Shown here: positions 2,414-30,268 of the stretch, in pieces
Position numbering within the stretch: position 1 is the stretch's first letter
How the letters are laid out: the number at the start of each line of letters is the position of its first letter
Virus record (IMG/VR): IMGVR_UViG_3300003886_000002
Length of the DNA: 64,000 bases
DNA from: a virus
Strand: one strand, 5' to 3'
Made by a program: the position numbers and the translations under genes
The notes under the pieces: generated by a model
Seen by the model: only the letters and a program-made list of their open reading frames with translations
What the model was told of the DNA's origin: nothing
Databases searched by the model: none

Positions 2414-2706
2414 GTGACTTTAGTCATGATCATCCGTGGCGTCCACACGCGATACACACTGATTGTGTCTGTAAAGACGACCGCTGGCCCTGTGAATTCC
2501 ATTCCGGTTTCGCTGAGGCATCTGGGTATGGGGAGAATGTTGCGAAGTGGTTGCAAACTCAACGCGATGAGGCGCGACGCGACGCAGTGTGGTGTTGGGG
2601 TCGCCTTGACCCTGATGTGCGGGCAGAAGCGTTATCTGCGGAGGCGCGGATACGGGTAATCCGTATCCGCAGTTGGGTTACAGCAGACAAGGACCCCACT
2701 CCATGA
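2410..2706 (+). CDS. hypothetical protein
   Basis: ATGA overlap; CVC...WPC motif. Confidence 0.55.
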   Translation: MSDFSHDHPWRPHAIHTDCVCKDDRWPCEFHSGFAEASGYGENVAKWLQTQRDEARRDAVWCWGRLDPDVRAEALSAEARIRVIRIRSWVTADKDPTP

Positions 2707-4691
2707 GCACCACAACAGAAATAGGTGATTGCTTGAAAGCGCTGGCTGAAGTGGCCGACGACACCTACGACTCGATCGTCACCGATCCGCCATACGGAAT
2801 CTCGTTCATGGGGAAGGGATGGGACCACGGGGTGCCCGGTGAGGAGTTCTGGACCGAGATCCTGCGGGTCGCCAAGCCCGGTGCTCACCTGCTCGCCTTC
2901 GGCGGCACCCGGACCCACCATAGGCTCATGGTGGCGATCGAAGACTCTGGATGGGAGATCCGTGACTGCATGATGTGGCTGTACGGTCAGGGATTCCCGA
3001 AGTCGCACAACGTGAGCAAGGCGATCGATAAGGCTACTGGGGCTGAGCGTGAAGTCGTTGGGGTCGATGAATCTAGGGCCGCTCGGCTAGTGAATCAGAC
3101 GGGCGAGTATGCGACGGCGGCTGGATGGGCAGCAGGGAACCGGAGTGCTGAGATAACTGCACCGGCCACCCCTGAGGCACATCAGTGGGACGGCTGGGGG
3201 ACTGCGCTGAAGCCCGCCTGGGAAATCGTGATTGCAGCGCAGAAGCCAGGGGACTGGTCTAAGGTAGATGGGAGCCTAACTGCTTTGGAGGCTGAGTTGT
3301 GGTCGATGTTGTCTGCGAGCGGTGTGGAACTTCCTTCGCCGTCAAGCCCTCCCGTCTCAGGCGAGGGAATGTTCGATGGTGCTCGATGGAGTGCAGAGCA
3401 GCCGACCAATACACAGGTCGGTTCGTTCGATCAGATGGGTACGTTTTCGTACGACGATGTGACGGCTATATGCTGGAACACCGTGCGGTCATGGAGGATC
3501 ACGTTGGCCGCTCTCTCCGAACTGATGAGCACGTCCACCATCGCAACGGAGACAAGTCAGACAATCGACTGGGCAACCTTGTGGTCCTTGATCGAGGAGA
3601 TCACACCCGAGAGCATCATCCAGGCCGTAACGAGTCGCGGTGGGTCGAGGTCTTCTGTCTCAACTGTGGCTCTCGCTTTCAGCGACGTGGCTATGAGGCT
3701 GAGCGCCATCCTCACGCTTTCTGTTCGCGGTCCTGCTACATCGCCGGAGCGCACGCCACTCCCGGCAGAGGGCGTTGACAGTCCCGCTTGGGAGCCGATC
3801 ATCGTGGCTCGCAAGCCATTCTCGGGCACCGTGGCGGCGAATGTGTTGGAGCACGGCACAGGTGCTATCAACATCGACGCCAGCCGGATCGGGTATGTGT
3901 CAGAGTCGGAGATGGATGCGGTGAAGCGTCGGTCCGGCGGGGGATCTTCGAGTGCTGGATACGCTGCGGGTAGCGGAGACACGTTCCATCAAAGCTGGAA
4001 AGATCGTGACGCTGGCCCATCGCAAACGGGTCGTTTCCCTGCGAACCTTGTGCTGAGTCATACGCCTGAGTGTCGAGATGTCGGCACATCATCGGAGGTC
4101 GTCGGTGGCGGGGCTGGGATGAGTGACACGGGTGAAGCATCGGCGTTGCTTGGCGGGGGTGGCTATGAGAAGGGTGATGGCTTCGAGGGCCGATCGGTCG
4201 AGACCGTGGTGTGGGAATGCTCGCCTGAGTGCCCGGTACGCCAGTTGGACGAACAGACAGGTACTCTCACGAGCGGCAAGCCAGGCAAACGTGGAAAGAA
4301 AGGGGAGATCAACTCGTCAGCAGCGTATGGAGCAGAGTCCCGTAAGGCAGGTGGCCCGATGACAGGGTTTGGGGATTCGGGTGGGGCTTCCCGCTTTTTT
4401 TACACAGCCAAGGCGTCGAAGAAGGAACGCAACGAAGGTTTGCCAGAAGGCATGGTCAACAAGCATCCGACTGTGAAGCCGATTGCCCTCATGCGCTACC
4501 TCGTTCGTATGGTGACTCCACCGGGCGGCACGGTGCTCGATCCGTTCATGGGGTCAGGCACGACAGGAGTCGCGGCTATCCGTGAGGGGTTTGATTTCGT
4601 TGGCATCGACAATGATGCTGAGTCAGTTGAGACGGCCAACGCAAGACTCAAACATGAACAAAAGGGGACTTCGGGGCCAACCTTGTTTTGA
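2703..4691 (+). CDS. DNA amino-methyltransferase (N6-A/N4-C, beta-class motif order) with 190-codon in-frame insertion
   Basis: IGDCL, VTDPPYG (motif IV), GFPKS, HPTVKPIALM, VLDPFMGSGTTG (motif I); ATGA overlap at 2703. Confidence 0.93.
   Translation: MSTTTEIGDCLKALAEVADDTYDSIVTDPPYGISFMGKGWDHGVPGEEFWTEILRVAKPGAHLLAFGGTRTHHRLMVAIEDSGWEIRDCMMWLYGQGFPKSHNVSKAIDKATGAEREVVGVDESRAARLVNQTGEYATAAGWAAGNRSAEITAPATPEAHQWDGWGTALKPAWEIVIAAQKPGDWSKVDGSLTALEAELWSMLSASGVELPSPSSPPVSGEGMFDGARWSAEQPTNTQVGSFDQMGTFSYDDVTAICWNTVRSWRITLAALSELMSTSTIATETSQTIDWATLWSLIEEITPESIIQAVTSRGGSRSSVSTVALAFSDVAMRLSAILTLSVRGPATSPERTPLPAEGVDSPAWEPIIVARKPFSGTVAANVLEHGTGAINIDASRIGYVSESEMDAVKRRSGGGSSSAGYAAGSGDTFHQSWKDRDAGPSQTGRFPANLVLSHTPECRDVGTSSEVVGGGAGMSDTGEASALLGGGGYEKGDGFEGRSVETVVWECSPECPVRQLDEQTGTLTSGKPGKRGKKGEINSSAAYGAESRKAGGPMTGFGDSGGASRFFYTAKASKKERNEGLPEGMVNKHPTVKPIALMRYLVRMVTPPGGTVLDPFMGSGTTGVAAIREGFDFVGIDNDAESVETANARLKHEQKGTSGPTLF
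3213..3782 (+). mobile_element. 570-bp in-frame insertion in the methyltransferase carrying an out-of-frame HNH gene
   Basis: Target peptide duplicated: KPAWEIVIAAQKP at 3210-3248 and SPAWEPIIVARKP at 3780-3818; no stop codon in the MTase frame; no intein termini. Confidence 0.75.
3299..3778 (+). CDS. HNH homing endonuclease, overprinted in a different frame
   Basis: GGAGG 3287-3291 then GTG 3299; EHRAVME...EHVHHRNGDKSDNRLGNL...H; N- and C-terminal CxxC...CSxxC zinc fingers. Confidence 0.9.
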   Translation: MVDVVCERCGTSFAVKPSRLRRGNVRWCSMECRAADQYTGRFVRSDGYVFVRRCDGYMLEHRAVMEDHVGRSLRTDEHVHHRNGDKSDNRLGNLVVLDRGDHTREHHPGRNESRWVEVFCLNCGSRFQRRGYEAERHPHAFCSRSCYIAGAHATPGRGR

Positions 4692-7622: not shown

Positions 7623-8339
7623 ATGAAATCAAACGTTTTACCTGATCTTGAACCGTTTCTTGTCCCCATAGATAACCTCAAACTGCTCCCTGGGAATCCG
7701 CGTAGAGGAAGCGTAAAGGCGGTAAGGAAATCCCTTGTTGAGTTCGGTCAGCATAAACCGCTCGTAGCTAGACGCGTGGAGGCAGACGAGGGGACAGTTA
7801 TAGGGGAAGTGTTGATAGGCAATCATACCCTTATGGCTGCACGTGAACTCGGGTGGGATGATGTCGCAGTTATCTGGAGTGATGACCCTGACGCAAAAGC
7901 GCTTGCCAGGTCACTAGCAGATAACCGTGTTTCTGATCTGGGGGCATACGACAACGACGATCTCGCCGCAATGATGCAAAGCGTCCTGGATGCTGATGAG
8001 CAACTACTAAATGCTGCATCATATACACAAAGCGACCTTGATGCCCTACTGAACGAGTCAACTAGCGAAACGGGACAAGACGCTGACGAAGAAGTCCCTG
8101 ACCCCCATCTAAAGAGTAACCTAAATTTGTTCGACAGGTTCATGGTTCCCCCATTCTCCGTCCTTGACGCACGTGGAGGCTGGTGGCAGGACCGTAAACG
8201 TGCGTGGATTGCCCTTGGAATAGAGGGAGAACTCGGGCGTGACGACAAACCACACACGTGGTACATAGCGGAGCCTGGGTCTTACACGGGAGAGTTGATG
8301 GTCGATGAGCATGCGGCTGATGAGCGCCGCAGCGAGTGA
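7623..8339 (+). CDS. ParB/Srx-domain protein fused to the N-terminal segment of a phage methyltransferase family
   Basis: GNPRRGSV...FGQHKPLVA...GNHTLMAARELGW...LADNR; C-terminal FMVPPFSVLDARGGWWQDRKRAWIALGI. Confidence 0.85.
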   Translation: MKSNVLPDLEPFLVPIDNLKLLPGNPRRGSVKAVRKSLVEFGQHKPLVARRVEADEGTVIGEVLIGNHTLMAARELGWDDVAVIWSDDPDAKALARSLADNRVSDLGAYDNDDLAAMMQSVLDADEQLLNAASYTQSDLDALLNESTSETGQDADEEVPDPHLKSNLNLFDRFMVPPFSVLDARGGWWQDRKRAWIALGIEGELGRDDKPHTWYIAEPGSYTGELMVDEHAADERRSE

Positions 8340-8381
8340 CGAGTAGAGGCCACTAGATGATTAGGTGGAATAGGTTAAGCA

Positions 8382-9998
8382 ATGGGTGACATAGTAGAGC
8401 AAATACAGGAGACTACAAAAGGGCTTCTATATGGGGATGGGGCCACATCTATCTTTGATCCTGTCCTGTGCGAGCTGATCTATCGCTGGTTCTCTCCACC
8501 AGGTGGCGTTATCCTCGACCCGTTTGCGGGGGGTTCTGTACGGGGGATTGTTGCCAACAAACTTGGACGCGCCTACGTTGGGGTTGAACTTAGAGAAGTG
8601 CAGGTGCGAGCGAACGAACGCCAAAGCTTGGAAATCTGCAATGGGATGTCTCTTGTCCCTGACGTCCCAGATGACAATATGCCTGATTACACCCCCGTGG
8701 AGTTCCACGAAAGTGTAAGTATTTGGATGAAACGTGAGGACAGTTACATATTCGCAGGGGTAAGGGGGGCAAAGGTTCGCGCATGCATATTTATGGTGGA
8801 GGAGGCACGCAAGGCCGGGGTAGGGGTTGTCACTGCTGGCGGACGTCATTCTCCACAAGTTAACTTCGTTGCACAGATCGCACATAGGATGGGGGTCAAG
8901 TGCCGTGTCCACGTCCCCACAGGTCCCCTTACCCCTGAATTGTTGGCATCCCGCTCTACAGGAGCGAAAGTGATCCAACATGAGTATGGATACAACACGG
9001 TCATCTTTGCGCGGGCACGGGAAGACGCAGAGGAACGGGGCTGGGTAATGATCCCCTACGGCATGGAGTCGCAAGAATCTATTGACTTCACCATCCCGCA
9101 GGTCTCCAACCTCCCCAAGGATGCGAAACGATTGGTTAACTGTGCCGGGTCCGGAATGACACTGGCAGGTATTTTGTGGGGGCTACAAGAATACGACAAC
9201 GACATCCCTGTTCTGGCTGTTTGTTGTGGGGGCGACCCGACCGCCAACTTGGATAAATGGGCTCCGGATGGTTGGAGGGACCGCGTTGATTTACAGCAGT
9301 CACCAAGTGATTACAATGTCGCAGCCCAAAACTGTGTCTATGCAGGGGTAACGCTTGACCCGTACTATGAGGCAAAGACTATCCCGTTTCTAAAGGAGCA
9401 TGATTGCCTTTGGGTTTCTGCGATTCGTCCATCTGCTGTGATGGCAGAAGGACCAGACCCTCAATGGATCTTGGGGGATGCGGCCAACATAGGGACGTTG
9501 TGTGCCGGGACACAAGCAGATTTGCTCGTAACCTGTCCCCCCTATGGGGATTTAGAGGTCTACTCTGATGACCCGTCCGACCTGTCCACTATGGGATATA
9601 CGGATTTCATCAACACGTTTTCCAAGATCATGAAAAGCAGTTTTCCCTTGATGAAGGACAACACGTTTGCTTGCGTTGTTGTTGGAGATTTCCGATCTGA
9701 TGACGGTTTCTATCACGGGTTCCCATCGGATGCCATATCTGCATGTGATGCCGCGGGGTGGAGGCTTTACAACGATGCAGTCCTTGTGACTCGTGCCAAC
9801 TCTTTGCCTCTCCGGGTTGGTAGACAGTTCGATGCTGCAAGGAAATTAGGGAAGACACATCAATCCGTATTGGTCTTCGTTAAGGGTGATTGGAAGGCAG
9901 CTACTGTGAATTGTGGGCCAGTGGTTTCTGTAGACTTAAGTGATATGCAGGCCGACGACTTAGATGATGGGGTTGTCGACGTCCCTAGTGAGGTTTGA
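8382..9998 (+). CDS. SAM-dependent methyltransferase-like protein with an inserted PLP-dependent (fold type II) domain
   Basis: SIFDPVLCE, LDPFAGGSVRG, TCPPY; aa ~103-350 contain TPV, KRED, GAKVR, GSGMT, LDPYYEAK. Confidence 0.85.
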   Translation: MGDIVEQIQETTKGLLYGDGATSIFDPVLCELIYRWFSPPGGVILDPFAGGSVRGIVANKLGRAYVGVELREVQVRANERQSLEICNGMSLVPDVPDDNMPDYTPVEFHESVSIWMKREDSYIFAGVRGAKVRACIFMVEEARKAGVGVVTAGGRHSPQVNFVAQIAHRMGVKCRVHVPTGPLTPELLASRSTGAKVIQHEYGYNTVIFARAREDAEERGWVMIPYGMESQESIDFTIPQVSNLPKDAKRLVNCAGSGMTLAGILWGLQEYDNDIPVLAVCCGGDPTANLDKWAPDGWRDRVDLQQSPSDYNVAAQNCVYAGVTLDPYYEAKTIPFLKEHDCLWVSAIRPSAVMAEGPDPQWILGDAANIGTLCAGTQADLLVTCPPYGDLEVYSDDPSDLSTMGYTDFINTFSKIMKSSFPLMKDNTFACVVVGDFRSDDGFYHGFPSDAISACDAAGWRLYNDAVLVTRANSLPLRVGRQFDAARKLGKTHQSVLVFVKGDWKAATVNCGPVVSVDLSDMQADDLDDGVVDVPSEV

Positions 9999-10855
9999 TC
10001 TATATGGAATCTCTGCTAAACAGAGTAGAACGGGTTGCTGTTGAAGAAATTGGGTCGTACCCAGACAACCCGCGCATCGGGAATATCAGCGCTTTGCGCG
10101 CCTCGCTGGAAGCGAACAAGCAGTTCTCTCCGCTTGTGGTGCAACGCTCAACAGGGTACATATTGCAAGGCAACCACACTTACGCTGCTGCTAAACTGTT
10201 GGGTTGGGAACAAATAGACGTTGTATATGTAGACGTTGGGGACACCGAAGCGAAACGTATCGTCCTAGCATCTAATCGTATCGCAGACTTAGGCAGCTAC
10301 AACGACGCAATGTTAGCCAACTTGCTTCAGGAGTTGGTAGACGATGACGCATCGCTTCTCCAAGGCACAGGATATGAGAAAGATGACGTGGATGGGCTGC
10401 TAGACGCGACTGTCACAGATATTGACATACCTGTAGATGTGGACGGTAGCGAGCGTGAAGCTACACGGGCAGCTATAGACCGCCTGTTTCCTGTAACAAA
10501 TCAGCAGGAGGCGTCTCTAGACAGTGGGCAACCTAACCTGCACCCTTCGACAAAAGCGGAAGTGGAAGCGGAAGCAGCAACGGGAGCACCCCCCCTGACC
10601 CCTGACGCAGATATGCTGCATGAGATCCAACCCACAGTAATCAACGAACCTGCCCCCCCTGTCCCGGAGTTTGTTCTTTTCAGGTTTGGGGATCTGAAGG
10701 CCAAAGTCATGAAAGACGAATACGATGCTTGGCGTACAGCATGTGACGATACAGACCCGTTTTCTGTGACGTGCGACTATCTAGAGTCCATTGGCCTGAC
10801 CCCCGAATCGATAAGACCATTCGAGACGGATGGTCCAGAAACATGGCACTCTTGA
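9995..10855 (+). CDS. ParB/Srx-domain protein (paralog of 7623..8339)
   Basis: YPDNPRIGN...NKQFSPLVV...GNHTYAAAKLLGW...LASNR; start may be ATG 10004. Confidence 0.85.
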   Translation: MIYMESLLNRVERVAVEEIGSYPDNPRIGNISALRASLEANKQFSPLVVQRSTGYILQGNHTYAAAKLLGWEQIDVVYVDVGDTEAKRIVLASNRIADLGSYNDAMLANLLQELVDDDASLLQGTGYEKDDVDGLLDATVTDIDIPVDVDGSEREATRAAIDRLFPVTNQQEASLDSGQPNLHPSTKAEVEAEAATGAPPLTPDADMLHEIQPTVINEPAPPVPEFVLFRFGDLKAKVMKDEYDAWRTACDDTDPFSVTCDYLESIGLTPESIRPFETDGPETWHS

Positions 10856-10896: not shown

Positions 10897-13800
10897 ATGC
10901 AGACAACCCTATTCGATGCTGCTGACAGCCCTCCCACCCAGATAATCCAACTCCGTGACTACCAACAGGATGCCATCGATTGCATCCTGGAGGCAGAGCA
11001 ACGCGGCGTCCGAAAGCAACTTGGGGTCGCAGCGACAGGCCTCGGCAAAGGGCTTGCAGTAGGAACAACTGTACTAAAATCTGACGGATCATGGCGTCCT
11101 GTCCAAGAACTAGAAGTTGGGGACTTCGTAGTGGGGGCAGACGGATACCCAACTAAAGTAGATGGCGTATTCCCTAGAGGAATCCAACCATGTTTTGTGG
11201 TGACGACAGACGATGGGGTATCCATTGTTGTTGATGCAGACCACCTGTGGACAGTAGCTACAGATGATGGCGTTAAGCGAGACGCCCCATGGGACACGCT
11301 AGAGACACAGCGTCTACACAAAATTGGGGTTGTGTCCTCTACGGGGTTTCCCCGCTGGCGACTCCCTGTTGTTGCCCCTATCACTTTCGACGCTCAACCC
11401 GAGCTTCCTGTGGATGCCCACACCCTTGGCGCAGTCATAGCGGACGGGACTATCGTCCAACATCCGACAGATGTATGCCCTGGCCCGCTATGGACTGCTG
11501 ACAGACCCTATAGGGCACAGCAGGGGACAACTGCCCGTAGCAACATAAACGATGCCCTGTCCTACTTGGGAACATGGGGGTTGGGACCTTTAGACAGGTT
11601 CATCCCAACCCCGTACTTGTGTGCGCCAATAGAAACCCGCCGTCTACTCCTTGCAGGGCTACTAAATGACACCAAACAAGACGGTAACGGGACTATCAAA
11701 TGTTTCACATCGTCTGCCCATCTTGCGAATGACGTAAAAGAACTTGCGGGGTCGTTGGGGATTATTACCACAATCACAAGTGATGCTCCGGGAACTAACG
11801 TGAGCATACACAAACTGGTATTCGGAGACACAAGTCGTCCCCACACTGTACGCAAGATCGTGTCTATAGACGCTGTGTCCCCCCGCGAAACAGTGTGTAT
11901 CAAGGTCTCCGCAGAAGACGGCCTATTCATATCAGAAGGACACGTCGTAACACATAACACTATTGTGTTTAACTCCCTGGCACAACGTAAAGGGGTCCGT
12001 ACCTTAATTCTAGCCCATAGAGACGAGCTGATTTCACAAGCGGTAGACAAACTCCTCATGATGTGGCCCGAAGCGGATGTAGGGGTAATCAAGGCGAAGC
12101 GGAATGAGATCGAGCATCAGATCATAGTAGGGTCGATCCAAACTTTGTCGAGGCAATCGCGCCGTGAACAGATCCCACGTGATTGGTTCAAACTAATAAT
12201 CGTAGATGAGTGTTTCCCTGCCGGTACACTCGTCGACGGTCACCCAATAGAAACGCTTGTCGAAGGTGATGTCGTTTCAAGTTTCGATGAACGCACGGGG
12301 GTGATGGTTCCTCGTCGCATCGTTCGTACAATGTCCAAACGGCCCTCATCTTTGGTGCGCCTTCACATGGCTAATGGGGATCACCTCGTGTGCACCCCCG
12401 AGCATCCTATGTGGACAAATGACGGATGGCTTTCCGCCGCATCATGTGAAGGTGCTAACCTTAGCGTTCATGACATGTACAATCTGCGGGCAGGGAACAG
12501 TGGGGACACGAAAGACATGTTCGAAGAAGTGCCGCTATCGTCTCGCGGCACAGTCTCAGCGTGGTCAGAAACGAAAACCTCGATCCAAACCCATCAAGGC
12601 AACGTGCACGGAGTGTGGGGTCATGGTCTCGATCCCGAGGGATCAGCGAAGCCGTCGGAGTCTTTGGAACTCCAAGGGTCGGGCGTATTGCTCCGACAAG
12701 TGTCGCGGCATATGGACGAGTCGCCTTTCCTCGAAAACTATGAGCGCCACGAACCGCAAGTATGCGTCGAAGCGTATGCGGGAGCACAATCCGATGGCAA
12801 AGAAAGAAGCACGCCAGAAAATGGCGGAGACGTTGCGTCGGATTGGACATCAGCCACGATGGAGGGGTGGGAACGGCCAAGGGATGACCGAACCTCAGAA
12901 GAAACTTCTCTTGGCACTTGGCCCTGGGTGGACAGCAGAATATATCGTTCCCACGGGTCAGCCTCCGACCAAAGGGGGGCTTCCGACACACTACAAGATC
13001 GACATATCTCATCCCGAACTGGGGATCGCTGTAGAGGTGGACGGTTCAAGCCATGCGGTTATTCGGAGGAAGGAAGCGGATCGCCGCAAGGACAAGTTCT
13101 TGTTGGCCCAAGGGTGGACCGTGTTGAGGTTCTCGAACCAGAGAGTGATGGACAATACGGAGGGCTGTGCCCAGATGGTTTTGTCTACAACATAGAAGTA
13201 GAGGACACCCACACCTATACGGCTAACGGGTATGTCGTACATAACTGTCACCACGCCACAGCAGATAGCTACACGAGTACGATCGAATACTTTGCAGACA
13301 GCGATCCTCTGATCTTGGGGGTTACAGCAACCCCTGATCGCGGTGACGGGAAGGGACTTGACGAAGTTTTCGATGAAGTCGTGTTCAACTATGACATACT
13401 GTGGGGTATCCGTAGGGGCTTCCTGTCTGACATTAAAGGGCGCCGTATCACAATGTCCGGGCTTGACCTATCGAAGGTCAGGATAAGCCGTGGAGACTAT
13501 GCAGAGGGTGACGTTGGTAGGGCTTTAGAGGATGCTGACGCCCCGAACCAGATAGCTGACGCCTATGTGCGGTTTGCTCCTGACCGTAAAACTATTGTGT
13601 TCACCCCGACGGTATCTGTTGCAGATGCGGTGTCTATTGCTCTACGTAACCGCGGGGTCTCTGCCGCAATGGTGTCTGGGGAAACACCTATTGATGAACG
13701 ACGCCAGATGTTGAAAGATTTCACCAGTGGGGACATAATGGTGATGGTTAACTGTCAAGTTCTGTGTGAAGGGTTTGATGAGCCGTCTGTTGACTGTATC

Positions 13801-15399
13801 GTTTTAGCAAGACCTACTAGGAGTCGTGCTCTTTACACACAGTGTCTTGATGATGCAACCGAGATCCTTACTTCTTCTGGGTGGCGTTCACGCGGCAAGA
13901 TTATGGATGATGATGTTGTCGCAACTTTCGATGTCGAATCGGGGGCGATGGGGTGGAGTCCCATCCTGTCGCGTGTCGACCGCGAACTTGGTGCAGATGA
14001 GGCCATGTATGAAATTGAGTCCCCCCATCAATCGATCCGGGTTACAGGCGGACACCGCATGGTCTGTTCCCTCACGGGGGGACACCCCCATGAGTGGGGT
14101 GAGTGGCAGCTCATAGAAGCACAGGATGCCGCTGTTATCCCAGATCCGTGGAAACTTCCTGTATCGGGCTTGCAGGATACAGAGGGTGTCCCCTTGTCTA
14201 ATAATGCGATCCGTTCCATAGGTTGGGGGATGTCAAATGCGGCAGTAGATCCTGTTTTTAACGAATCTTTCTCCTCTGTTTCTGAGGCCATAACCCGTGA
14301 ACAGATGGGGATTCTGCTTGATGCCATTCACCGCGGTAAAGGGACAGACCAGGATAGGCAGAAGTCCACGCGTAGCAGTTATCACCTGTCGTTAAGGCAC
14401 AATCGGGTACTGGCAGATCGACTCCAATCTTTGTGTGTCCGCAGAGGATATCGTGCTGCTGTCACTGAAGATCATGGCGGCAACCTTATTGTGCATGTTA
14501 GGGATCAGCAGACGGTGACGGTGGGTGGGGGATCTGTCAATGACCGCCCCATGTTCGTTCACTCGCCTACAAACCAAGGTGAACGTGTCTGGTGCGTTGA
14601 GACAGAAACAGGAACTCTTGTAACACGTCGTAACGGCAGGGTCGCCATCCTTGGTAACTGTATAGGACGGGGGACACGTCGCCACCCTGGGAAAGATAAC
14701 TGTTTAGTCCTAGATGTTGTAGGGGCTTCTGAAGAACACAGCCTGGTCACTATCCCTAGTCTCTTTGGAATTGAGCGAGGTGATGAGTTCGAGCACAAAG
14801 AGATGACAGTCGCGGAAGCGATCCAGGAGCAGGTGGAACGGCAAGTAAAGCTTGGGGAACTCAAAATCCAAGAGGTCGAGCTGTTTCGTAAAGTCGTTGA
14901 CTCCCCACTCGCGTGGACAGGGTATGTCTCAGCGCGAGGGGTGCGGGGATACACAATCTCCATTGGGGGGGATACGAATACGACAGTCATACTCGAAGAG
15001 TTGCAGCGACAAGATGACAGCAGTCGCCGCGTGGATAGCGGTGACAGCGATGGTGCTGATGGTGCTGATAGCAGCGCTCCTTTAAGCCTGTGGCGTGTAT
15101 GTGTACGTGAGAAAGATGGTAATGACGAATACCTGAAACGCCCGCTAATGTCAAACGTTGACCTTGAAATGGCGCAGGGGGTAGGTGAAGACTATGTACG
15201 GAAGCACGGCCATTCAGCATTGGTGAGTCGTGATGCCCCTTGGCGGAAGAGCCCTCCGTCTGACAAACAACTGTTGTTCGCTAAGAAGCTCCATATTCCT
15301 GTTGGTGAGGAATGGACGAAAGGTCAAGTTTCTGAGGCTATCGATGCTGCGTTAGCGCGCCGCAACGCACACCGCAGCGGCAGCTACAAGCGTAGTTAG
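10897..15399 (+). CDS. SF2 DExH helicase precursor with three inteins
   Basis: LRDYQ, ATGLGK|T, ILAHRDEL, VDE|CHH, GVTATP, VNCQVLCEGFDEP, Q|CIGRGTR after removing the inteins. Confidence 0.95.
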   Translation: MQTTLFDAADSPPTQIIQLRDYQQDAIDCILEAEQRGVRKQLGVAATGLGKGLAVGTTVLKSDGSWRPVQELEVGDFVVGADGYPTKVDGVFPRGIQPCFVVTTDDGVSIVVDADHLWTVATDDGVKRDAPWDTLETQRLHKIGVVSSTGFPRWRLPVVAPITFDAQPELPVDAHTLGAVIADGTIVQHPTDVCPGPLWTADRPYRAQQGTTARSNINDALSYLGTWGLGPLDRFIPTPYLCAPIETRRLLLAGLLNDTKQDGNGTIKCFTSSAHLANDVKELAGSLGIITTITSDAPGTNVSIHKLVFGDTSRPHTVRKIVSIDAVSPRETVCIKVSAEDGLFISEGHVVTHNTIVFNSLAQRKGVRTLILAHRDELISQAVDKLLMMWPEADVGVIKAKRNEIEHQIIVGSIQTLSRQSRREQIPRDWFKLIIVDECFPAGTLVDGHPIETLVEGDVVSSFDERTGVMVPRRIVRTMSKRPSSLVRLHMANGDHLVCTPEHPMWTNDGWLSAASCEGANLSVHDMYNLRAGNSGDTKDMFEEVPLSSRGTVSAWSETKTSIQTHQGNVHGVWGHGLDPEGSAKPSESLELQGSGVLLRQVSRHMDESPFLENYERHEPQVCVEAYAGAQSDGKERSTPENGGDVASDWTSATMEGWERPRDDRTSEETSLGTWPWVDSRIYRSHGSASDQRGASDTLQDRHISSRTGDRCRGGRFKPCGYSEEGSGSPQGQVLVGPRVDRVEVLEPESDGQYGGLCPDGFVYNIEVEDTHTYTANGYVVHNCHHATADSYTSTIEYFADSDPLILGVTATPDRGDGKGLDEVFDEVVFNYDILWGIRRGFLSDIKGRRITMSGLDLSKVRISRGDYAEGDVGRALEDADAPNQIADAYVRFAPDRKTIVFTPTVSVADAVSIALRNRGVSAAMVSGETPIDERRQMLKDFTSGDIMVMVNCQVLCEGFDEPSVDCIVLARPTRSRALYTQCLDDATEILTSSGWRSRGKIMDDDVVATFDVESGAMGWSPILSRVDRELGADEAMYEIESPHQSIRVTGGHRMVCSLTGGHPHEWGEWQLIEAQDAAVIPDPWKLPVSGLQDTEGVPLSNNAIRSIGWGMSNAAVDPVFNESFSSVSEAITREQMGILLDAIHRGKGTDQDRQKSTRSSYHLSLRHNRVLADRLQSLCVRRGYRAAVTEDHGGNLIVHVRDQQTVTVGGGSVNDRPMFVHSPTNQGERVWCVETETGTLVTRRNGRVAILGNCIGRGTRRHPGKDNCLVLDVVGASEEHSLVTIPSLFGIERGDEFEHKEMTVAEAIQEQVERQVKLGELKIQEVELFRKVVDSPLAWTGYVSARGVRGYTISIGGDTNTTVILEELQRQDDSSRRVDSGDSDGADGADSSAPLSLWRVCVREKDGNDEYLKRPLMSNVDLEMAQGVGEDYVRKHGHSALVSRDAPWRKSPPSDKQLLFAKKLHIPVGEEWTKGQVSEAIDAALARRNAHRSGSYKRS
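11050..11958 (+). mobile_element. intein 1 of helicase (303 aa, class-3-like, Gly1, degenerate LAGLIDADG)
   Basis: Inserted in Walker A GLGK|T; GLAVGT...DADHLW...TVCIKV...VVTHN|T. Confidence 0.88.
12211..13245 (+). mobile_element. intein 2 of helicase (345 aa) carrying an out-of-frame endonuclease gene
   Basis: Inserted in DE|CH; CFPAGT...CTPEHP...VYNIEVEDTHTYTANGYVVHN|C. Confidence 0.92.
12374..13195 (+). CDS. DUF559/Vsr-like PD-(D/E)xK endonuclease overprinted in the +1 frame inside intein 2
   Basis: YKIDISHPELGIAVEVDGSSH...DRRKDKFLLAQGWTVLRF; N-terminal CxxC/CSxxC motifs; start may be ATG 12470. Confidence 0.85.
   Translation: MGITSCAPPSILCGQMTDGFPPHHVKVLTLAFMTCTICGQGTVGTRKTCSKKCRYRLAAQSQRGQKRKPRSKPIKATCTECGVMVSIPRDQRSRRSLWNSKGRAYCSDKCRGIWTSRLSSKTMSATNRKYASKRMREHNPMAKKEARQKMAETLRRIGHQPRWRGGNGQGMTEPQKKLLLALGPGWTAEYIVPTGQPPTKGGLPTHYKIDISHPELGIAVEVDGSSHAVIRRKEADRRKDKFLLAQGWTVLRFSNQRVMDNTEGCAQMVLSTT
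13843..14658 (+). mobile_element. intein 3 of helicase (272 aa)
   Basis: Inserted in motif VI Q|CIGR; CLDDATEILT...VTGGHRM...VWCVETETGTLVTRRNGRVAILGN|C. Confidence 0.92.
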
Positions 15400-29207: not shown

Positions 29208-29453
29208 CTATTCTCCCTTAAGTCCATACACGGGCTCTACAGCTTTTCCAAGCAGCTTGCCCAATTCAGGTCTGCTCTGCTCAATCTTACGAACCACTGC
29301 GTAGTAAACACTTCCCGCTACCAATGTGGCGATAGGGGTGACAGCGTCAGAGCCAAGATCGAACCCCCACTTAGCCGCCACAGCAATAACGGTGCCTACA
29401 ACGAAAGGCACCACTGTGCGGACAATCGAGGTTCCATAATCACTCAAGTTCAT
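29208..29453 (-). CDS. holin
   Basis: Two TM segments, IVRTVVP motif, basic C-terminus, near the amidase. Confidence 0.75.
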   Translation of the reverse strand: MNLSDYGTSIVRTVVPFVVGTVIAVAAKWGFDLGSDAVTPIATLVAGSVYYAVVRKIEQSRPELGKLLGKAVEPVYGLKGE

Positions 29454-30268
29454 AACTCCTCCAGGAGTTCGACATCAGGGCCTACATCCATCATGGTATC
29501 ACCATCAGGGAGCAGGTCAAGGGTTCCAACCCACCCTACAACATTTCCTGACCCATCATGCAACGGAGACGCAGAACCCCTAACGTTTGCCACCGCAGAA
29601 GTGTTGACATTGCGCAGCCGATAAATGGCGGTGAAGTCCTTATGCTCATCTACAGCCTTTCCCCAAGTCCTAAAAACCCGGTCCCTGTCTACGGGGTGCA
29701 GAGACTCTGCCCACCCTTCCCCCTGCGCTTCCTCTATAGGGAGCCCTGTCAAACGTGTCCATGCAGGGTTGACATAGGTGCACCAGCCACTATCGTCTGT
29801 TTCGAACACCGGCATATCTAATGCACGGTAGATTTGGCGTATGCGTCCTGTTGCCCCAACAGCTTCTTGTAACACAGATTCTGACATCTCGGAAAGTTTG
29901 ATGATCTGTAGGTCCACCCCACCGAAGCGTTCCTCTAAACAGCTATGGATATCGTCCACTCTGGCAATCACTTGATCTTGGCGTGTCCACGCCGCCACTG
30001 ATCCGTTAGCCAAAATCTCCTGGTTTGCTTTCAGTCCGTCGAGGCGGTCAACGACTGATGACCCCCCATTAGGTTTGCTTACCTTGTCATCTACGACAGC
30101 GCCCACAACCCGCTCACCCCACTCCGTGACAGGCAAGGCGACTAGACGACGCCATAGCCACTTTGCCGGACGAGTCCTGCTAAGCCCACCTATGGCAGCA
30201 ACCACTGCTGCAACCCAAATAGTTTGTTCACCAATCTGTCGCAGCAATGCAACTAACGCCAAAGTCAT
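29450..30268 (-). CDS. lysis-cassette membrane protein with C-terminal PAS/PAC domain
   Basis: N-terminal TM, KPNGGSS..DRL, coiled coil; aa ~142-252 contain PVFETD..G.CTYVN.AW..LTG...EE..G.GW...LHP.DR...YRLR...ASP..D..G.VVGW.G. Confidence 0.85.
   Translation of the reverse strand: MTLALVALLRQIGEQTIWVAAVVAAIGGLSRTRPAKWLWRRLVALPVTEWGERVVGAVVDDKVSKPNGGSSVVDRLDGLKANQEILANGSVAAWTRQDQVIARVDDIHSCLEERFGGVDLQIIKLSEMSESVLQEAVGATGRIRQIYRALDMPVFETDDSGWCTYVNPAWTRLTGLPIEEAQGEGWAESLHPVDRDRVFRTWGKAVDEHKDFTAIYRLRNVNTSAVANVRGSASPLHDGSGNVVGWVGTLDLLPDGDTMMDVGPDVELLEEL

What the first reader, a model, noticed from the sequence alone, without database searches (positions are those of the whole stretch)
7623..10855. 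ParB / MTase-with-inserted-PLP-enzyme / ParB locus: candidate unknown DNA-modification pathway
A ~250-aa fold-type-II PLP domain (nt ~8688-9431) splits the SAM-binding motif (DPFAGGS) from the catalytic-type motif (TCPPY). It has ACC deaminase/D-cysteine desulfhydrase-like motifs KRED, GAK131VR, GSGMT and LDPYYEAK. Two ParB/Srx paralogs flank it. Established: PLP enzymes act in thymidine hypermodification in phages M6 and ViI, and ParB/Srx-fold proteins SbnI and SerK are serine kinases, with SbnI supplying phosphoserine to the fold-type-II enzyme SbnA. Inference: the locus activates a substrate with the ParB fold, processes it with PLP, and transfers a group other than a simple methyl to DNA or to a metabolite. 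A separate conventional MTase already exists at 2703, so this one need not be a plain methylase.
Basis: partly seen in the sequence, partly recalled or inferred. Interest (0 to 1): 0.8.

Follow-up and report, generated by a model that had tools for sequence, protein, structure and literature searches.

The report
Phage DNA methylase carrying PLP enzyme
A phage encodes, in two pieces, a DNA-tethered methyltransferase with a complete vitamin-B6 (PLP) enzyme built into it. That enzyme is related to the only PLP enzymes known to trim amino acids attached to phage DNA, so this common but unstudied module may make a DNA mark other than plain methylation.

Summary
ORF B (8382-9998) is a SAM-dependent amino-methyltransferase with a roughly 257-residue fold-type-II PLP domain (residues 98-354) nested between motif II/helix B and motif III. 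ParB paralogs flank it. The "three-enzyme pathway" reading is mostly not supported.

- **Split gene:** ORF A (7623-8339) and ORF B are two halves of one ParB-methyltransferase that is a single protein in other phages.
- **ParB domains:** they lack the superfamily's active-site arginine (GNHT) and resemble DNA-binding ParB/KorB more than the kinases SerK/SbnI.
- **Methyltransferase core:** it is essentially identical to plain family members, one of which makes m6dA.
- **PLP domain:** its cofactor and catalytic residues are invariant in 122 homologues. Its nearest characterised relatives are not cellular ACC deaminases but ViI gp226 and M6 gp52, decarboxylases of amino acids attached to DNA.
- **Association:** the PLP module appears nested, N-terminal, C-terminal or stand-alone, almost always beside a methyltransferase. 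No kinase or amino-acid:DNA transferase accompanies it.

My best reading (about 0.35) is that the PLP domain processes an amino-acid-type group on DNA, most simply the aminocarboxypropyl part of SAM. Rivals are a cofactor-level helper and an independent effector. I found no paper describing this architecture. This scan has met the same family in several other genomes.

The parts
7623..8339 (+). ORF A, 238 aa: ParB/Srx-fold N-domain (residues about 11-156; Box II reads GNHT, with no arginine), an acidic linker, and the N-terminal segment of the methyltransferase (residues about 165-210, FDRFMVPPFSVLDARGGWWQDRKRAWIALGIEGELGR).
   Evidence: PHROG phrog_723 E 3e-33 and phrog_498 (ParB-MTase) E 1e-27. 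ORF A aligns end to end with the first 240 or so residues of fused homologues. Fold is closest to 5K5D, 8QA8 and 6RYK (Z 10.2-11.1).
8115..8252 (+). The segment of ORF A (residues 165-210) that belongs to the methyltransferase fold.
   Evidence: It matches phrog_12517 positions 26-66. In the predicted complex, ORF A residues 172-206 pack against ORF B residues 22-36, 50-60, 71-85, 392-395 and 464-471. P177, V180, W188, R191, K192 and W195 are invariant.
8340..8381 (+). Spacer between ORF A and ORF B. It is in the same frame as both ORFs; counting ORF A's own stop codon (8337-8339), three in-frame stops separate the two ORFs, two of them inside this spacer. A GGTGGA ribosome-binding-like site lies upstream of the ORF B ATG.
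   Evidence: The split falls in the variable linker of fused homologues. About 50 homologues of 520-540 aa share the split form, as do loci L015, L018, L019, L023-L026 and L033.
8382..9998 (+). ORF B, 538 aa: methyltransferase core interrupted by a PLP domain.
8439..8645 (+). First half of the methyltransferase (residues 20-88): motif X-like TSIFDPVLCE, motif I DPFAGGS (46-52), motif II acid E69 (GVELR), and helix B.
   Evidence: D46, G50, G51, S52 and R54 are invariant in 122 homologues. The consensus is identical to that of plain ParB-MTases.
8673..9443 (+). Nested fold-type-II PLP domain (residues 98-354). It contains K131 (PLP lysine, nt 8772-8774), KRED 117-120, S157-P-Q, phosphate loop GSGMT 256-260, and D326/Y329/E330/K332.
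   Evidence: Pfam PALP E 2.4e-15. Residue invariance. 1J0A Z 25.9. phrog_3650 (ViI gp226 family) E 1.6e-31. hhalign against the gp226 orthologue 97.9% and against M6 gp52 95.8%.
9453..9926 (+). Second half of the methyltransferase (residues 358-515): motif III W362..G365-D366, motif IV T-C-P-P-Y 384-388 (nt 9531-9545) followed by DLEVYSDD, and the C-terminal strands.
   Evidence: phrog_12517 E 4.4e-87. CPPY is invariant wherever it aligns. Plain relatives have the same motif.
9995..10855 (+). ORF C, 286 aa: second ParB-fold paralog (GNHT at Box II) with an acidic linker and a C-terminal part with no family match. Its start overlaps the ORF B stop by 4 nt.
   Evidence: phrog_723 E 6.6e-38. 37% identical to ORF A. 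Weak matches to Noc and Spo0J. Present downstream only in the close clade (L003, L016-L019, L022).

Best explanation
**What it is (well supported).** Nucleotides 7623-9998 encode one enzyme in two polypeptides. It is a ParB-tethered, SAM-dependent amino-methyltransferase of the phage 'CPPY' ParB-MTase family. The tail of ORF A (residues 172-206) completes the methyltransferase fold of ORF B. Nested in that fold is a compact PLP enzyme with intact catalytic residues, belonging to the same phage clade as ViI gp226 and M6 gp52. ORF C is an extra ParB paralog with no catalytic arginine.

**How it most likely works (inferred).**
1. The ParB domains hold or activate the enzyme on phage DNA, as ParB does for phage thymine dioxygenases.
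2. The methyltransferase domain binds SAM and presents an exocyclic amino group, probably N6 of adenine.
3. The PLP domain forms a Schiff base with the free alpha-amine of an amino-acid-type group that hangs on the DNA and processes it. By homology this would be a decarboxylation.

No other transferase is conserved with the module. The simplest source of such a group is therefore the 3-amino-3-carboxypropyl part of SAM, transferred by the methyltransferase-like domain. That would give an aminopropyl-type mark instead of, or besides, a methyl group.
For: **Split enzyme**
- Fused homologues exist in cultured phages: Pam4 gp70 (829 aa) and ZS04 gp7 (812 aa).
- ORF A aligns over its full length with the N-termini of fused homologues.
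- Complex prediction supports binding of ORF A to ORF B. ipSAE is 0.87, against 0.00 for the best of 3 controls. That mark was reached by 51 of 78 solved complexes and 2 of 108 mismatched pairs.
- The three runs share at least 45% of their contacts, and the partner's pLDDT is at least 55. The interface is ORF A 172-206 against ORF B 22-36, 50-60 and 464-471.
- These are halves of a split gene, so the pass may reflect likeness to intact methyltransferase folds. The calibration also held no ligands riding along.

**PLP domain has its catalytic residues intact**
- K131, R133, KR[DE]D, S157-P-Q, GSGM[ST] and D326..Y329-E330-x-K332 are invariant or nearly so in 122 homologues, down to about 37% identity.

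**Clade**
- phrog_3650 scores 110.6 bits (E 1.6e-31). Pfam PALP scores 57 bits, and every NCBIfam ACCD/DcyD/CuyA model scores 31.5 bits or less.
- phrog_3650 is the ViI gp226 family. Maynard_28 matches it at E 1.7e-240 and is 96% identical in DNA to Vi01_182 = YP_004327553.
- M6 gp52 belongs to phrog_7093 (E 2e-159). hhalign gives 95.8% probability over 227 columns, and the aligned window lysine falls in gp52's SFSKIRG motif, the lysine the paper numbers K36.
- Both enzymes were shown to decarboxylate amino-acid:thymine conjugates in DNA (PMC8989533).

**Association with methyltransferases**
- Among the sequences whose PLP domain could be typed, 191 were nested, 28 C-terminal, 4 N-terminal, 15 stand-alone (under 300 aa), 21 in other fusions and 7 partial.
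- These forms are intermixed on the PLP tree (58 label changes on 268 tips).
- Stand-alone genes sit beside methyltransferases in Alsa_1, L007, L008, L011 and L013.

**Other partners are DNA-modification-type enzymes**
- DUF3109/DpdM-like (PMC10516641).
- GNAT.
- DNA polymerase A.
- ThyX-like plus NUDIX.

**No other conserved neighbour**
- In 80 viral loci the only other recurrent neighbours are terminase, portal and helicase genes.

**ParB as activator of a phage DNA-modifying enzyme**
- PMC13229309.
Against: - The SAM-binding and catalytic motifs of PLP-bearing proteins are practically identical to those of 122 plain ParB-MTases. Only three conserved columns differ between the two groups, and none of them lies in motif I or motif IV.
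- A plain ParB-methyltransferase, BCE_0392, makes m6dA by LC-MS (PMC3459991). I did not check its sequence against this family. The core may therefore simply methylate.
- The insertion point (helix B to strand 3) is on the face of the Rossmann sheet opposite the SAM site. This is inferred from topology. No coordinates were available to measure the distance between the two active sites.
- Homologues of the enzymes that create the gp226/gp52 substrates (the 5-hmdU kinase and the amino-acid:DNA transferase) are absent from the window and from 80 related loci.
- The same PLP domain is fused to a SET domain and sits next to class-I methyltransferases. That fits a SAM or SAH-level role equally well.
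- Aminocarboxypropyl transfer to DNA has no precedent.
- An earlier check within this scan priced the aminocarboxypropyl reading at 15/100.
Confidence: 0.35

Rival explanations
1. Plain orphan methylase with a cofactor-level helper. The methyltransferase makes ordinary m6A (or m4C) for anti-restriction. The PLP domain acts on the amino-acid end of a SAM-derived small molecule (SAH, homocysteine or SAM itself), for example to relieve product inhibition.
For: - The methyltransferase core is unchanged compared with plain relatives.
- BCE_0392 makes m6dA.
- The PLP module accompanies SAM-dependent methylases of unrelated kinds. These are the CPPY type, an SPPY type, a gamma-class NPPW N6_Mtase, a SET-domain fusion and a class-I methyltransferase neighbour, a Methyltransf_12/25 fusion, and DUF3109.
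- The position of the PLP domain is free (nested, N-terminal, C-terminal or separate), as expected if only proximity matters.
- ACC deaminase chemistry handles the four-carbon skeleton that SAM and SAH carry (general knowledge).
Against: - The nearest characterised relatives act on DNA-borne amino acids, not on free metabolites.
- Fusions to GNAT and to DNA polymerase A are not explained.
- The ACCD/DcyD clan prefers D- or achiral substrates (general knowledge).
- No PLP-dependent SAH or SAM lyase of this fold is known.
Confidence: 0.25
2. Independent effector in a 'polyvalent' protein. The PLP domain is a separate counter-defence or metabolic enzyme that rides on the ParB-methylase hub, with no chemical link to methylation.
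For: - ParB and adenine methylase domains are hubs that fuse to many unrelated effector domains in phages and plasmids (PMC5512222).
- The PLP domain's partners are varied: GNAT, SET, DNA polymerase A and LPG_synthase_C-like genes.
- The geometry suggests that the two active sites are not adjacent.
Against: - Stand-alone PLP genes are next to a methyltransferase in most loci examined, and those methyltransferases belong to different families, so recent fission does not explain the adjacency.
- The association survives many rearrangements.
- The polyvalent-protein survey lists no PLP domain.
Confidence: 0.2
3. A ParB-fold kinase activates a substrate (as SbnI/SerK make phosphoserine), the PLP domain processes it, and the methyltransferase-like domain transfers the product.
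For: - ParB, Srx, SerK and SbnI share a fold, and SerK and SbnI appear in the fold search at Z 7.4 and 6.8.
- SbnA-type enzymes are among the structural neighbours of the PLP domain (5D84, Z 19.7).
Against: - Box II is GNHT in ORF A and ORF C, and the arginine is not conserved across the family.
- DNA-binding ParB, KorB and PadC are closer (Z 10.2-11.1).
- ParB is linked to the methyltransferase family regardless of PLP.
- PLP loci without ParB are common.
- ORF C is confined to close relatives.
- The PLP domain is ACCD/gp226-like, not SbnA/CysK-like (Z 25.9 against 19.7).
Confidence: 0.03
4. The PLP-fold domain is non-catalytic. It would serve as a structural, dimerisation or target-recognition module sitting where alpha-class methyltransferases carry their recognition domain.
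For: The insertion lies between the motif I-II half of the core and motif III. ACCD and DcyD are dimers (general knowledge).
Against: - The Schiff-base lysine, the phosphate loop, the Tyr-Glu pair and the KR[DE]D motif are invariant across 122 divergent homologues, including stand-alone forms.
- The domain also works from N-terminal, C-terminal and separate positions.
Confidence: 0.05

Closest known systems
ViI gp226 (YP_004327553, phrog_3650) and M6 gp52 (YP_001294560, phrog_7093): PLP-dependent decarboxylases of amino-acid:thymine conjugates in phage DNA (Lee et al., NAR 2021/22, PMC8989533)
   Same: - Same compact fold-type-II, ACC-deaminase-like PLP fold. The paper's best template for gp226, 1J0A, is also the window domain's best structural match.
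- The Schiff-base lysine aligns. Window K131 aligns with K65 of the gp226 orthologue Maynard_28, which corresponds to the paper's K92 in the 27-aa-longer ViI protein (hhalign). It also aligns with the lysine of gp52's SFSKIRG motif, the paper's K36.
- Shared motifs: KRED, SPQ, GYNS and YE[GA]K.
- Both are phage-borne.
- Scores: HMMER E 1.6e-31 and 4.8e-12; hhalign 97.9% and 95.8%.
   Different: - Identity is only about 25%.
- The partners differ. The window has no 5-hmdU kinase, no aGPT-Pplase amino-acid:DNA transferase and no radical-SAM isomerase.
- Here the domain is nested in, fused to or adjacent to an amino-methyltransferase.
- Substrate and reaction are untested.
Plain phage/prophage ParB-methyltransferases of the 'CPPY' type (Listeria phage B054 gp77; phrog_498/phrog_12517). 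The characterised B. cereus ParB-methyltransferase BCE_0392 is taken from the literature; its sequence was not compared here.
   Same: - Same order of parts: ParB N-domain, PPFSVL.AR.GWW..RK..W segment, TSIFDPVLCE, DPFAGGSVRG, [ST]CPPY.DLEVYSDD.
- Same usual position next to the packaging genes.
- BCE_0392 gives m6dA in E. coli, and its ParB domain nicks DNA.
   Different: - The window enzyme carries a 257-residue PLP domain between helix B and strand 3.
- It is split into two polypeptides.
- Its ParB lacks the Box-II arginine.
- A second ParB gene follows.
ACC deaminase / D-cysteine desulfhydrase (1F2D, 1RQX, 4D8T, 1J0A; TIGR01274/TIGR01275)
   Same: - Best solved structural matches (Z 23.8-25.9).
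- Foldseek E 5e-12.
- Sequence E 3e-6 to 1F2D.
- The Lys, Ser and Tyr-Glu positions align.
   Different: - Scores are far below the curated family cut-offs (about 30 bits against 289-450).
- The domain is about 70 residues shorter.
- It has SPQ where the cellular enzymes have SN[HQ].
- Only 852 representatives in 1.84 billion proteins match at E 0.001 or better, nearly all of the listed ones methyltransferase-linked. It is a separate, phage-centred clade.
ParB activators of phage thymine dioxygenases (5mYOX176/ParB176; PMC13229309)
   Same: - A ParB-fold protein encoded beside a post-replicative DNA-modifying enzyme in a phage.
- Its function does not depend on the NTP-binding residues.
- ORF A and ORF C lack those residues.
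   Different: The partner enzyme here is a methyltransferase/PLP protein, not a dioxygenase. No experiment links ORF C to ORF B.

Membership tests
CPPY-type ParB-methyltransferase (PF01555 permuted; phrog_498 / phrog_12517) | SAM-binding motif I (DPFAGGS) and motif II acid | tested here: met
   Residues 46-52 and E69. Invariant in homologues. Identical consensus in plain members.
CPPY-type ParB-methyltransferase (PF01555 permuted; phrog_498 / phrog_12517) | Motif IV [ST]CPPY followed by DLEVYSDD | tested here: met
   Residues 384-397. The same motif is present in B054 gp77.
CPPY-type ParB-methyltransferase (PF01555 permuted; phrog_498 / phrog_12517) | N-terminal PPFSVL.AR.GWW..RK..W segment and ParB N-domain in the same protein | tested here: met
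   Both are present, but on the separate polypeptide ORF A. Predicted to dock on ORF B.
CPPY-type ParB-methyltransferase (PF01555 permuted; phrog_498 / phrog_12517) | Methyl transfer to DNA adenine N6 | not testable with these tools
   Shown only for the ParB-methyltransferase BCE_0392 (PMC3459991), whose sequence was not compared here.
Fold-type-II PLP enzymes (PF00291) | Schiff-base lysine, glycine-rich phosphate loop, overall fold | tested here: met
   K131 and GSGMT 256-260. Pfam E 2.4e-15, above the cut-off. Z 25.9.
ACC deaminase / D-cysteine desulfhydrase equivalogs (TIGR01274, TIGR01275, NF003030) | Score at or above the curated family cut-off | tested here: not met
   22-31 bits against cut-offs of 289-429 bits.
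Phage PLP decarboxylases of DNA-borne amino acids (ViI gp226 / M6 gp52) | Sequence and profile homology with an aligned catalytic lysine | tested here: met
   phrog_3650 E 1.6e-31 and phrog_7093 E 4.8e-12. hhalign 97.9% and 95.8%. Family assignments verified.
Phage PLP decarboxylases of DNA-borne amino acids (ViI gp226 / M6 gp52) | Co-occurrence with a 5-hmdU DNA kinase and an amino-acid:DNA transferase | tested here: not met
   jackhmmer with ViI gp243 and gp247 found no hit at E 0.01 or better in the window or in 80 related loci. The rest of the 158-kb contig was not available.
Phage PLP decarboxylases of DNA-borne amino acids (ViI gp226 / M6 gp52) | Decarboxylation of an amino acid attached to a DNA base | not testable with these tools
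   Needs biochemistry.
SbnI / SerK ParB-fold serine kinases | Closest structural and sequence relatives are the kinases | tested here: not met
   SerK Z 7.4 and SbnI Z 6.8, against pNOB8 ParB 11.1, KorB 10.4 and PadC 10.2. Sequence matches only to Noc, Spo0J and ParB.
ParB CTPase clamps / ParB-Srx active site | Box-II arginine (GxxR) in the nucleotide pocket | tested here: not met
   GNHT in ORF A (residues 66-69) and in ORF C. The column is variable across the family.

The most novel reading that the evidence does not exclude
The methyltransferase-like domain transfers the 3-amino-3-carboxypropyl group of SAM, rather than (or besides) the methyl group, to an exocyclic amine of a DNA base. The nested gp226-like PLP domain then decarboxylates it on the polymer. 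The product would be a cationic N-(3-aminopropyl) base, a DNA modification not yet described, made by a single self-contained enzyme that is common in uncultured phages.
Probability: 0.2. Interest if true: 0.9.

Novelty: new variant of a known kind. Interest (0 to 1): 0.66.

Why it matters
ParB-methyltransferases are among the commonest orphan methylases of phages and prophages and are assumed to make plain m6A. A large sub-family carries a PLP enzyme with its catalytic residues intact, homologous to the only PLP enzymes known to work on DNA-borne amino acids. I found at least 350 clusters (50% identity) with E below 1e-30, and 201 IMG/VR contigs. Cultured members are available in Pam4, R6L and ZS04.

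If the two activities are coupled on DNA, this would be a one-gene route to a new amino-bearing DNA modification. That bears on restriction evasion, on sequencing artefacts and on enzymatic DNA labelling. If the PLP domain instead acts on SAH or SAM, it would be the first built-in by-product-clearing module of a methyltransferase. Either result is directly testable with cultured phages and simple expression constructs.

The papers I found do not mention the PLP domain. The R6L genome paper describes the gene as single-domain and CcrM-like. Surveys of ParB fusions and of polyvalent proteins contain no occurrence of PLP or pyridoxal.

Tried and rejected
- **DNA-level search:** megablast of the locus against 50,697 phage records found no match.
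- **Own genome:** The genome search 'own' failed because no genome is held for this window. The rest of the 158-kb contig could not be scanned.
- **DUF3109:** looked for a DUF3109/DpdM-like gene in the window with phmmer. None at E 1 or better.
- **hmdU pathway genes:** looked for the ViI 5-hmdU kinase and amino-acid:DNA transferase in the window and 80 loci. None.
- **Window Pfam scans:** 30 other window ORFs gave no hypermodification genes. Most have no family at all.
- **Group-specific residues:** comparing PLP-bearing with plain methyltransferases gave only three differing conserved columns and no change in motif I or motif IV. There is therefore no sequence sign of a change in chemistry. 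The plain set is mostly from Firmicutes, so lineage may confound this.
- **Net charge of PLP domains:** tried as a hint of DNA binding. Too variable to be informative.
- **NCBIfam:** no curated family fits.
- **Literature:** searches for a described methyltransferase-PLP fusion found none. The one co-occurrence hit (PMC11780129) was irrelevant.
- **Rejected idea:** 'CPPY' is not a mark of altered chemistry in the PLP-bearing form. It is family-wide.
- **Not possible:** I could not measure the distance between the PLP and SAM sites, because model coordinates are not exposed.

Full report
**1. What is in the sequence**

Three co-directional ORFs fill 7623-10855: ORF A (7623-8339, 238 aa), ORF B (8382-9998, 538 aa) and ORF C (9995-10855, 286 aa). 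They lie in a phage-like stretch between an RNase T-type exonuclease gene and a helicase gene that carries inteins.

Pfam finds a PALP domain in ORF B at residues 109-283 (E 2.4e-15). It also finds the C-terminal, motif-I part of N6_N4_Mtase at residues 31-77. ORF A and ORF C each give a weak ParB_N match. PHROG profiles are much clearer:
- ORF A and ORF C match ParB family phrog_723 (E 3e-33 and 7e-38).
- ORF B matches phrog_12517 (E 4e-87) and the ParB-methyltransferase family phrog_498 (E 2e-70).
- ORF B also matches two PLP families, phrog_3650 (E 9e-31) and phrog_7093 (E 2e-11).

An AlphaFold2 model of ORF B (pLDDT 88, pTM 0.81) contains two domains.
- Residues 98-354 superpose on the ACC-deaminase homologue 1J0A (Z 25.9, rmsd 2.7 Å, 255 residues), on D-cysteine desulfhydrase 4D97 (Z 25.2) and on ACC deaminase 1RQX (Z 23.8).
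- The discontinuous remainder (21-502) matches the amino-methyltransferases TrmN, aTrm11 and Trm14 (Z 18-20).

**2. ORF A and ORF B are one split enzyme**

ORF A and ORF B are in the same reading frame. Three stop codons separate them, the first being ORF A's own.

The tail of ORF A (FDRFMVPPFSVLDARGGWWQDRKRAWIALGIEGELGR) is the conserved N-terminal segment of this methyltransferase family. In Pseudanabaena phage Pam4 gp70 (829 aa), in Erythrobacter phages ZS04 gp7 (812 aa) and R6L ORF1, and in many metagenomic proteins, four parts form a single polypeptide. These are ParB, this segment, the motif-I half with the PLP domain, and the motif-IV half. ORF A aligns end to end with the first 240 or so residues of such proteins and stops in their variable linker.

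About 50 homologues of 520-540 aa, and several viral loci, share the split form, so it is a stable arrangement and not a pseudogene.

Complex prediction supports binding of ORF A to ORF B.
- ipSAE is 0.87, against 0.00 for the best of 3 controls. That mark was reached by 51 of 78 solved complexes and 2 of 108 mismatched pairs.
- The three runs share at least 45% of their contacts, and the partner's pLDDT is at least 55.
- The interface is exactly ORF A 172-206 against ORF B 22-36, 50-60, 71-85, 392-395 and 464-471, that is, around motifs X, I and IV.
- These are halves of a split gene, so the pass may reflect likeness to intact methyltransferase folds. The calibration also contained no ligands.

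**3. The ParB domains**

ORF A and ORF C are paralogs, 37% identical (E 4e-27). Both have GNHT where ParB/Srx proteins carry the Box-II arginine, and that column is not conserved across the family.

A model of ORF A (pLDDT 79.5) is closest to pNOB8 ParB-N (Z 11.1), KorB (10.4) and PadC (10.2). Sulfiredoxin (7.9), SerK (7.4) and SbnI (6.8) follow at superfamily level.

The ParB fusion belongs to the methyltransferase family in general. Listeria phage B054 gp77 and 120 further plain ParB-methyltransferases have no PLP domain. ORF C-like genes follow the methyltransferase only in the window's close relatives, and not in Pam4, ZS04 or a prophage copy.

Two published results give a better analogy than SbnI/SerK.
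- The ParB domain of the B. cereus ParB-methylase nicks DNA (PMC5512222).
- Phage ParB proteins activate thymine dioxygenases on double-stranded DNA independently of their NTP-binding residues (PMC13229309).

**4. The methyltransferase**

Motif IV reads T-C-P-P-Y. In a sequence alignment of the plain relative B054 gp77 with aTrm11, the Cys of CPPY aligns with the Asp of DPPY. This is a family trait, not something special to the PLP-bearing form.

I compared 224 PLP-bearing with 122 plain members. The consensus sequences are nearly the same throughout: TSIFDPVLCE, DPFAGGSVRG, GIDLR.EQ, [ST]CPPY.DLEVYSDD. Only three conserved columns differ, and none of them lies in motif I or motif IV.

The ParB-methyltransferase BCE_0392 gave m6dA by LC-MS in E. 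coli, although an earlier in vitro assay with [3H]AdoMet was negative (PMC3459991). I did not compare its sequence with this family.

**5. The PLP domain**

In 122 homologues, down to about 37% identity, the following are invariant or nearly so: K117-R118, D120, G129, K131, R133, S157-P-Q, G256-S-G-M, D326, Y329-E330 and K332. The same residues are conserved in stand-alone versions.

The domain belongs to no curated cellular family. NCBIfam models for ACC deaminase, D-cysteine desulfhydrase and CuyA score 22-31 bits against cut-offs of 289-450. A full HMMER scan of 1.84 billion representatives finds only 852 relatives at E 0.001 or better, and nearly all of the 150 listed are embedded in longer, methyltransferase-type proteins.

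- Salmonella phage Maynard gene 28 matches phrog_3650 over its full length (E 1.7e-240). It is 96% identical in DNA to Vi01_182 = YP_004327553 = gp226.
- M6 gp52 (YP_001294560) matches phrog_7093 (E 2e-159).
- The window's domain scores 110.6 bits (E 1.6e-31) on phrog_3650 and 47 bits on phrog_7093.
- hhalign of the family alignment gives 97.9% probability against the gp226 orthologue and 95.8%, over 227 columns, against gp52.
- Window K131 aligns with K65 of Maynard_28, which corresponds to the paper's K92 in the 27-aa-longer ViI protein. It also aligns with the lysine of gp52's SFSKIRG motif, the paper's K36.

Both gp226 and gp52 were shown biochemically to decarboxylate amino acids attached to thymine in DNA (PMC8989533).

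**6. Comparative genomics**

Architectures in the sequences collected (counts):
- 191 nested, 28 with a C-terminal PLP domain and 4 with an N-terminal one.
- 15 stand-alone (under 300 aa), 21 in other fusions and 7 partial.

On a FastTree tree of the PLP domain these forms are thoroughly intermixed (58 parsimony changes on 268 tips). Branch supports were not evaluated, and some metagenomic proteins are truncated.

Stand-alone PLP genes lie next to, or within a few genes of, methyltransferases of several kinds:
- CPPY type in L008 and L011.
- SPPY type in Staphylococcus phage Alsa_1 and L011.
- A small PF01555 protein in L013.
- A gamma-class NPPW N6_Mtase in L007.

Other recurrent or occasional partners:
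- DUF3109 (the DpdM family, which methylates dPreQ1 in DNA; PMC10516641), either fused or adjacent.
- GNAT.
- A SET domain in a giant-virus bin, and LPG_synthase_C-like genes with a class-I methyltransferase in a 257-kb contig.
- DNA polymerase A.
- A ThyX-like gene plus NUDIX.

In 80 IMG/VR loci, out of 201 viral contigs with a relative, no other gene family recurs in more than 13 loci. Those that do recur are a 165-aa HTH protein (possibly the small terminase subunit), the large terminase subunit, the portal and a helicase. Homologues of the ViI 5-hmdU kinase and amino-acid:DNA transferase are absent from the window and from these loci.

**7. Interpretation**

*Shown by the evidence:*
- The enzyme is a split ParB-tethered amino-methyltransferase.
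- It carries a nested PLP domain with intact catalytic residues, of the gp226/gp52 clade.
- The methyltransferase-PLP association is persistent and independent of geometry.
- No accessory enzyme is conserved with it.

*Inferred:*
- My leading reading (0.35) is that the PLP domain acts on an amino-acid-type group carried by DNA. The only such group available to this self-contained module is the aminocarboxypropyl part of SAM. Decarboxylation would then leave an aminopropyl-type mark. I put that specific version at about 0.2.
- Against it stand the unchanged methyltransferase core, the m6dA reported for the ParB-methylase BCE_0392, and the lack of any precedent.
- A cofactor-level helper acting on SAH or SAM (0.25) is favoured by the association with methylases of unrelated folds.
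- An independent 'polyvalent' effector (0.2) is favoured by the hub behaviour of ParB-methylases, but it does not explain why stand-alone PLP genes sit beside methyltransferases.

**8. Novelty**

I found no paper describing this architecture.
- The R6L genome paper calls its copy a single-domain CcrM-like methylase.
- The polyvalent-protein survey and the 2025 survey of ParB fusions contain no occurrence of PLP or pyridoxal.

This scan has reported the same family in at least five other genomes, so the present window adds a split form with an extra ParB paralog rather than a first sighting. I class it as a new variant of a known kind. It would become categorically new only if a non-methyl product is demonstrated.

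Noticed in passing
window 12374-13195 (+), inside helicase ORF 10897-15399: A 273-aa ORF lies in a different reading frame within the intein-bearing part of the helicase gene. It has paired cysteines and a DUF559/Vsr-like endonuclease signature (Atlas feature score 0.95 to a PF04480 cluster; weak PDB match to 3HRL). It looks like a homing endonuclease gene nested out of frame in a mini-intein.
   Followed up: partly
window 10897-15399 (+): A 1500-aa ResIII/Helicase_C helicase is interrupted by Hint/intein and LAGLIDADG segments, probably more than one intein. Relatives have 589-948-aa versions.
   Followed up: no
window 2673-4691 (+): A second PF01555 methyltransferase (672 aa) matches the profile only at residues 28-48 and 582-656. 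Its core is therefore also interrupted by about 500 residues of unidentified sequence, possibly an intein or another inserted module.
   Followed up: no
L019 (IMGVR_UViG_3300045742_000078) / protein P0018: A close homologue of ORF B is 895-935 aa long because it carries an intein (PF14528, PF14890) inside the methyltransferase-PLP gene.
   Followed up: no
L091:2128-3657 (giant-virus MAG contig); proteins P0162, P0214, P0139; L086:7971-11457: The same PLP domain is fused to a SET domain, to GNAT acetyltransferases and to DNA polymerase A. In a 257-kb contig it sits beside two LPG_synthase_C-like genes and a class-I methyltransferase.
   Followed up: partly
L045 (IMGVR_UViG_3300029288_000063, 253-kb contig): Three ParB-methyltransferase paralogs stand in a row, and only the middle one carries the PLP domain. 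This suggests that the PLP-bearing and plain forms are not redundant.
   Followed up: no
window 29450-30268 (-): A PAS-domain protein is encoded in the phage (PAS_3 E 3.5e-14). A PAS protein is also present in the related contig L003.
   Followed up: no
L002:1-939 (Erythrobacter phage ZS04): A PAPS-reductase-like gene lies five genes upstream of the ParB-methyltransferase-PLP gene, and the R6L paper also lists PAPS reductases. This is reminiscent of IbrA/IbrB-type ParB plus PAPS-reductase pairs.
   Followed up: no
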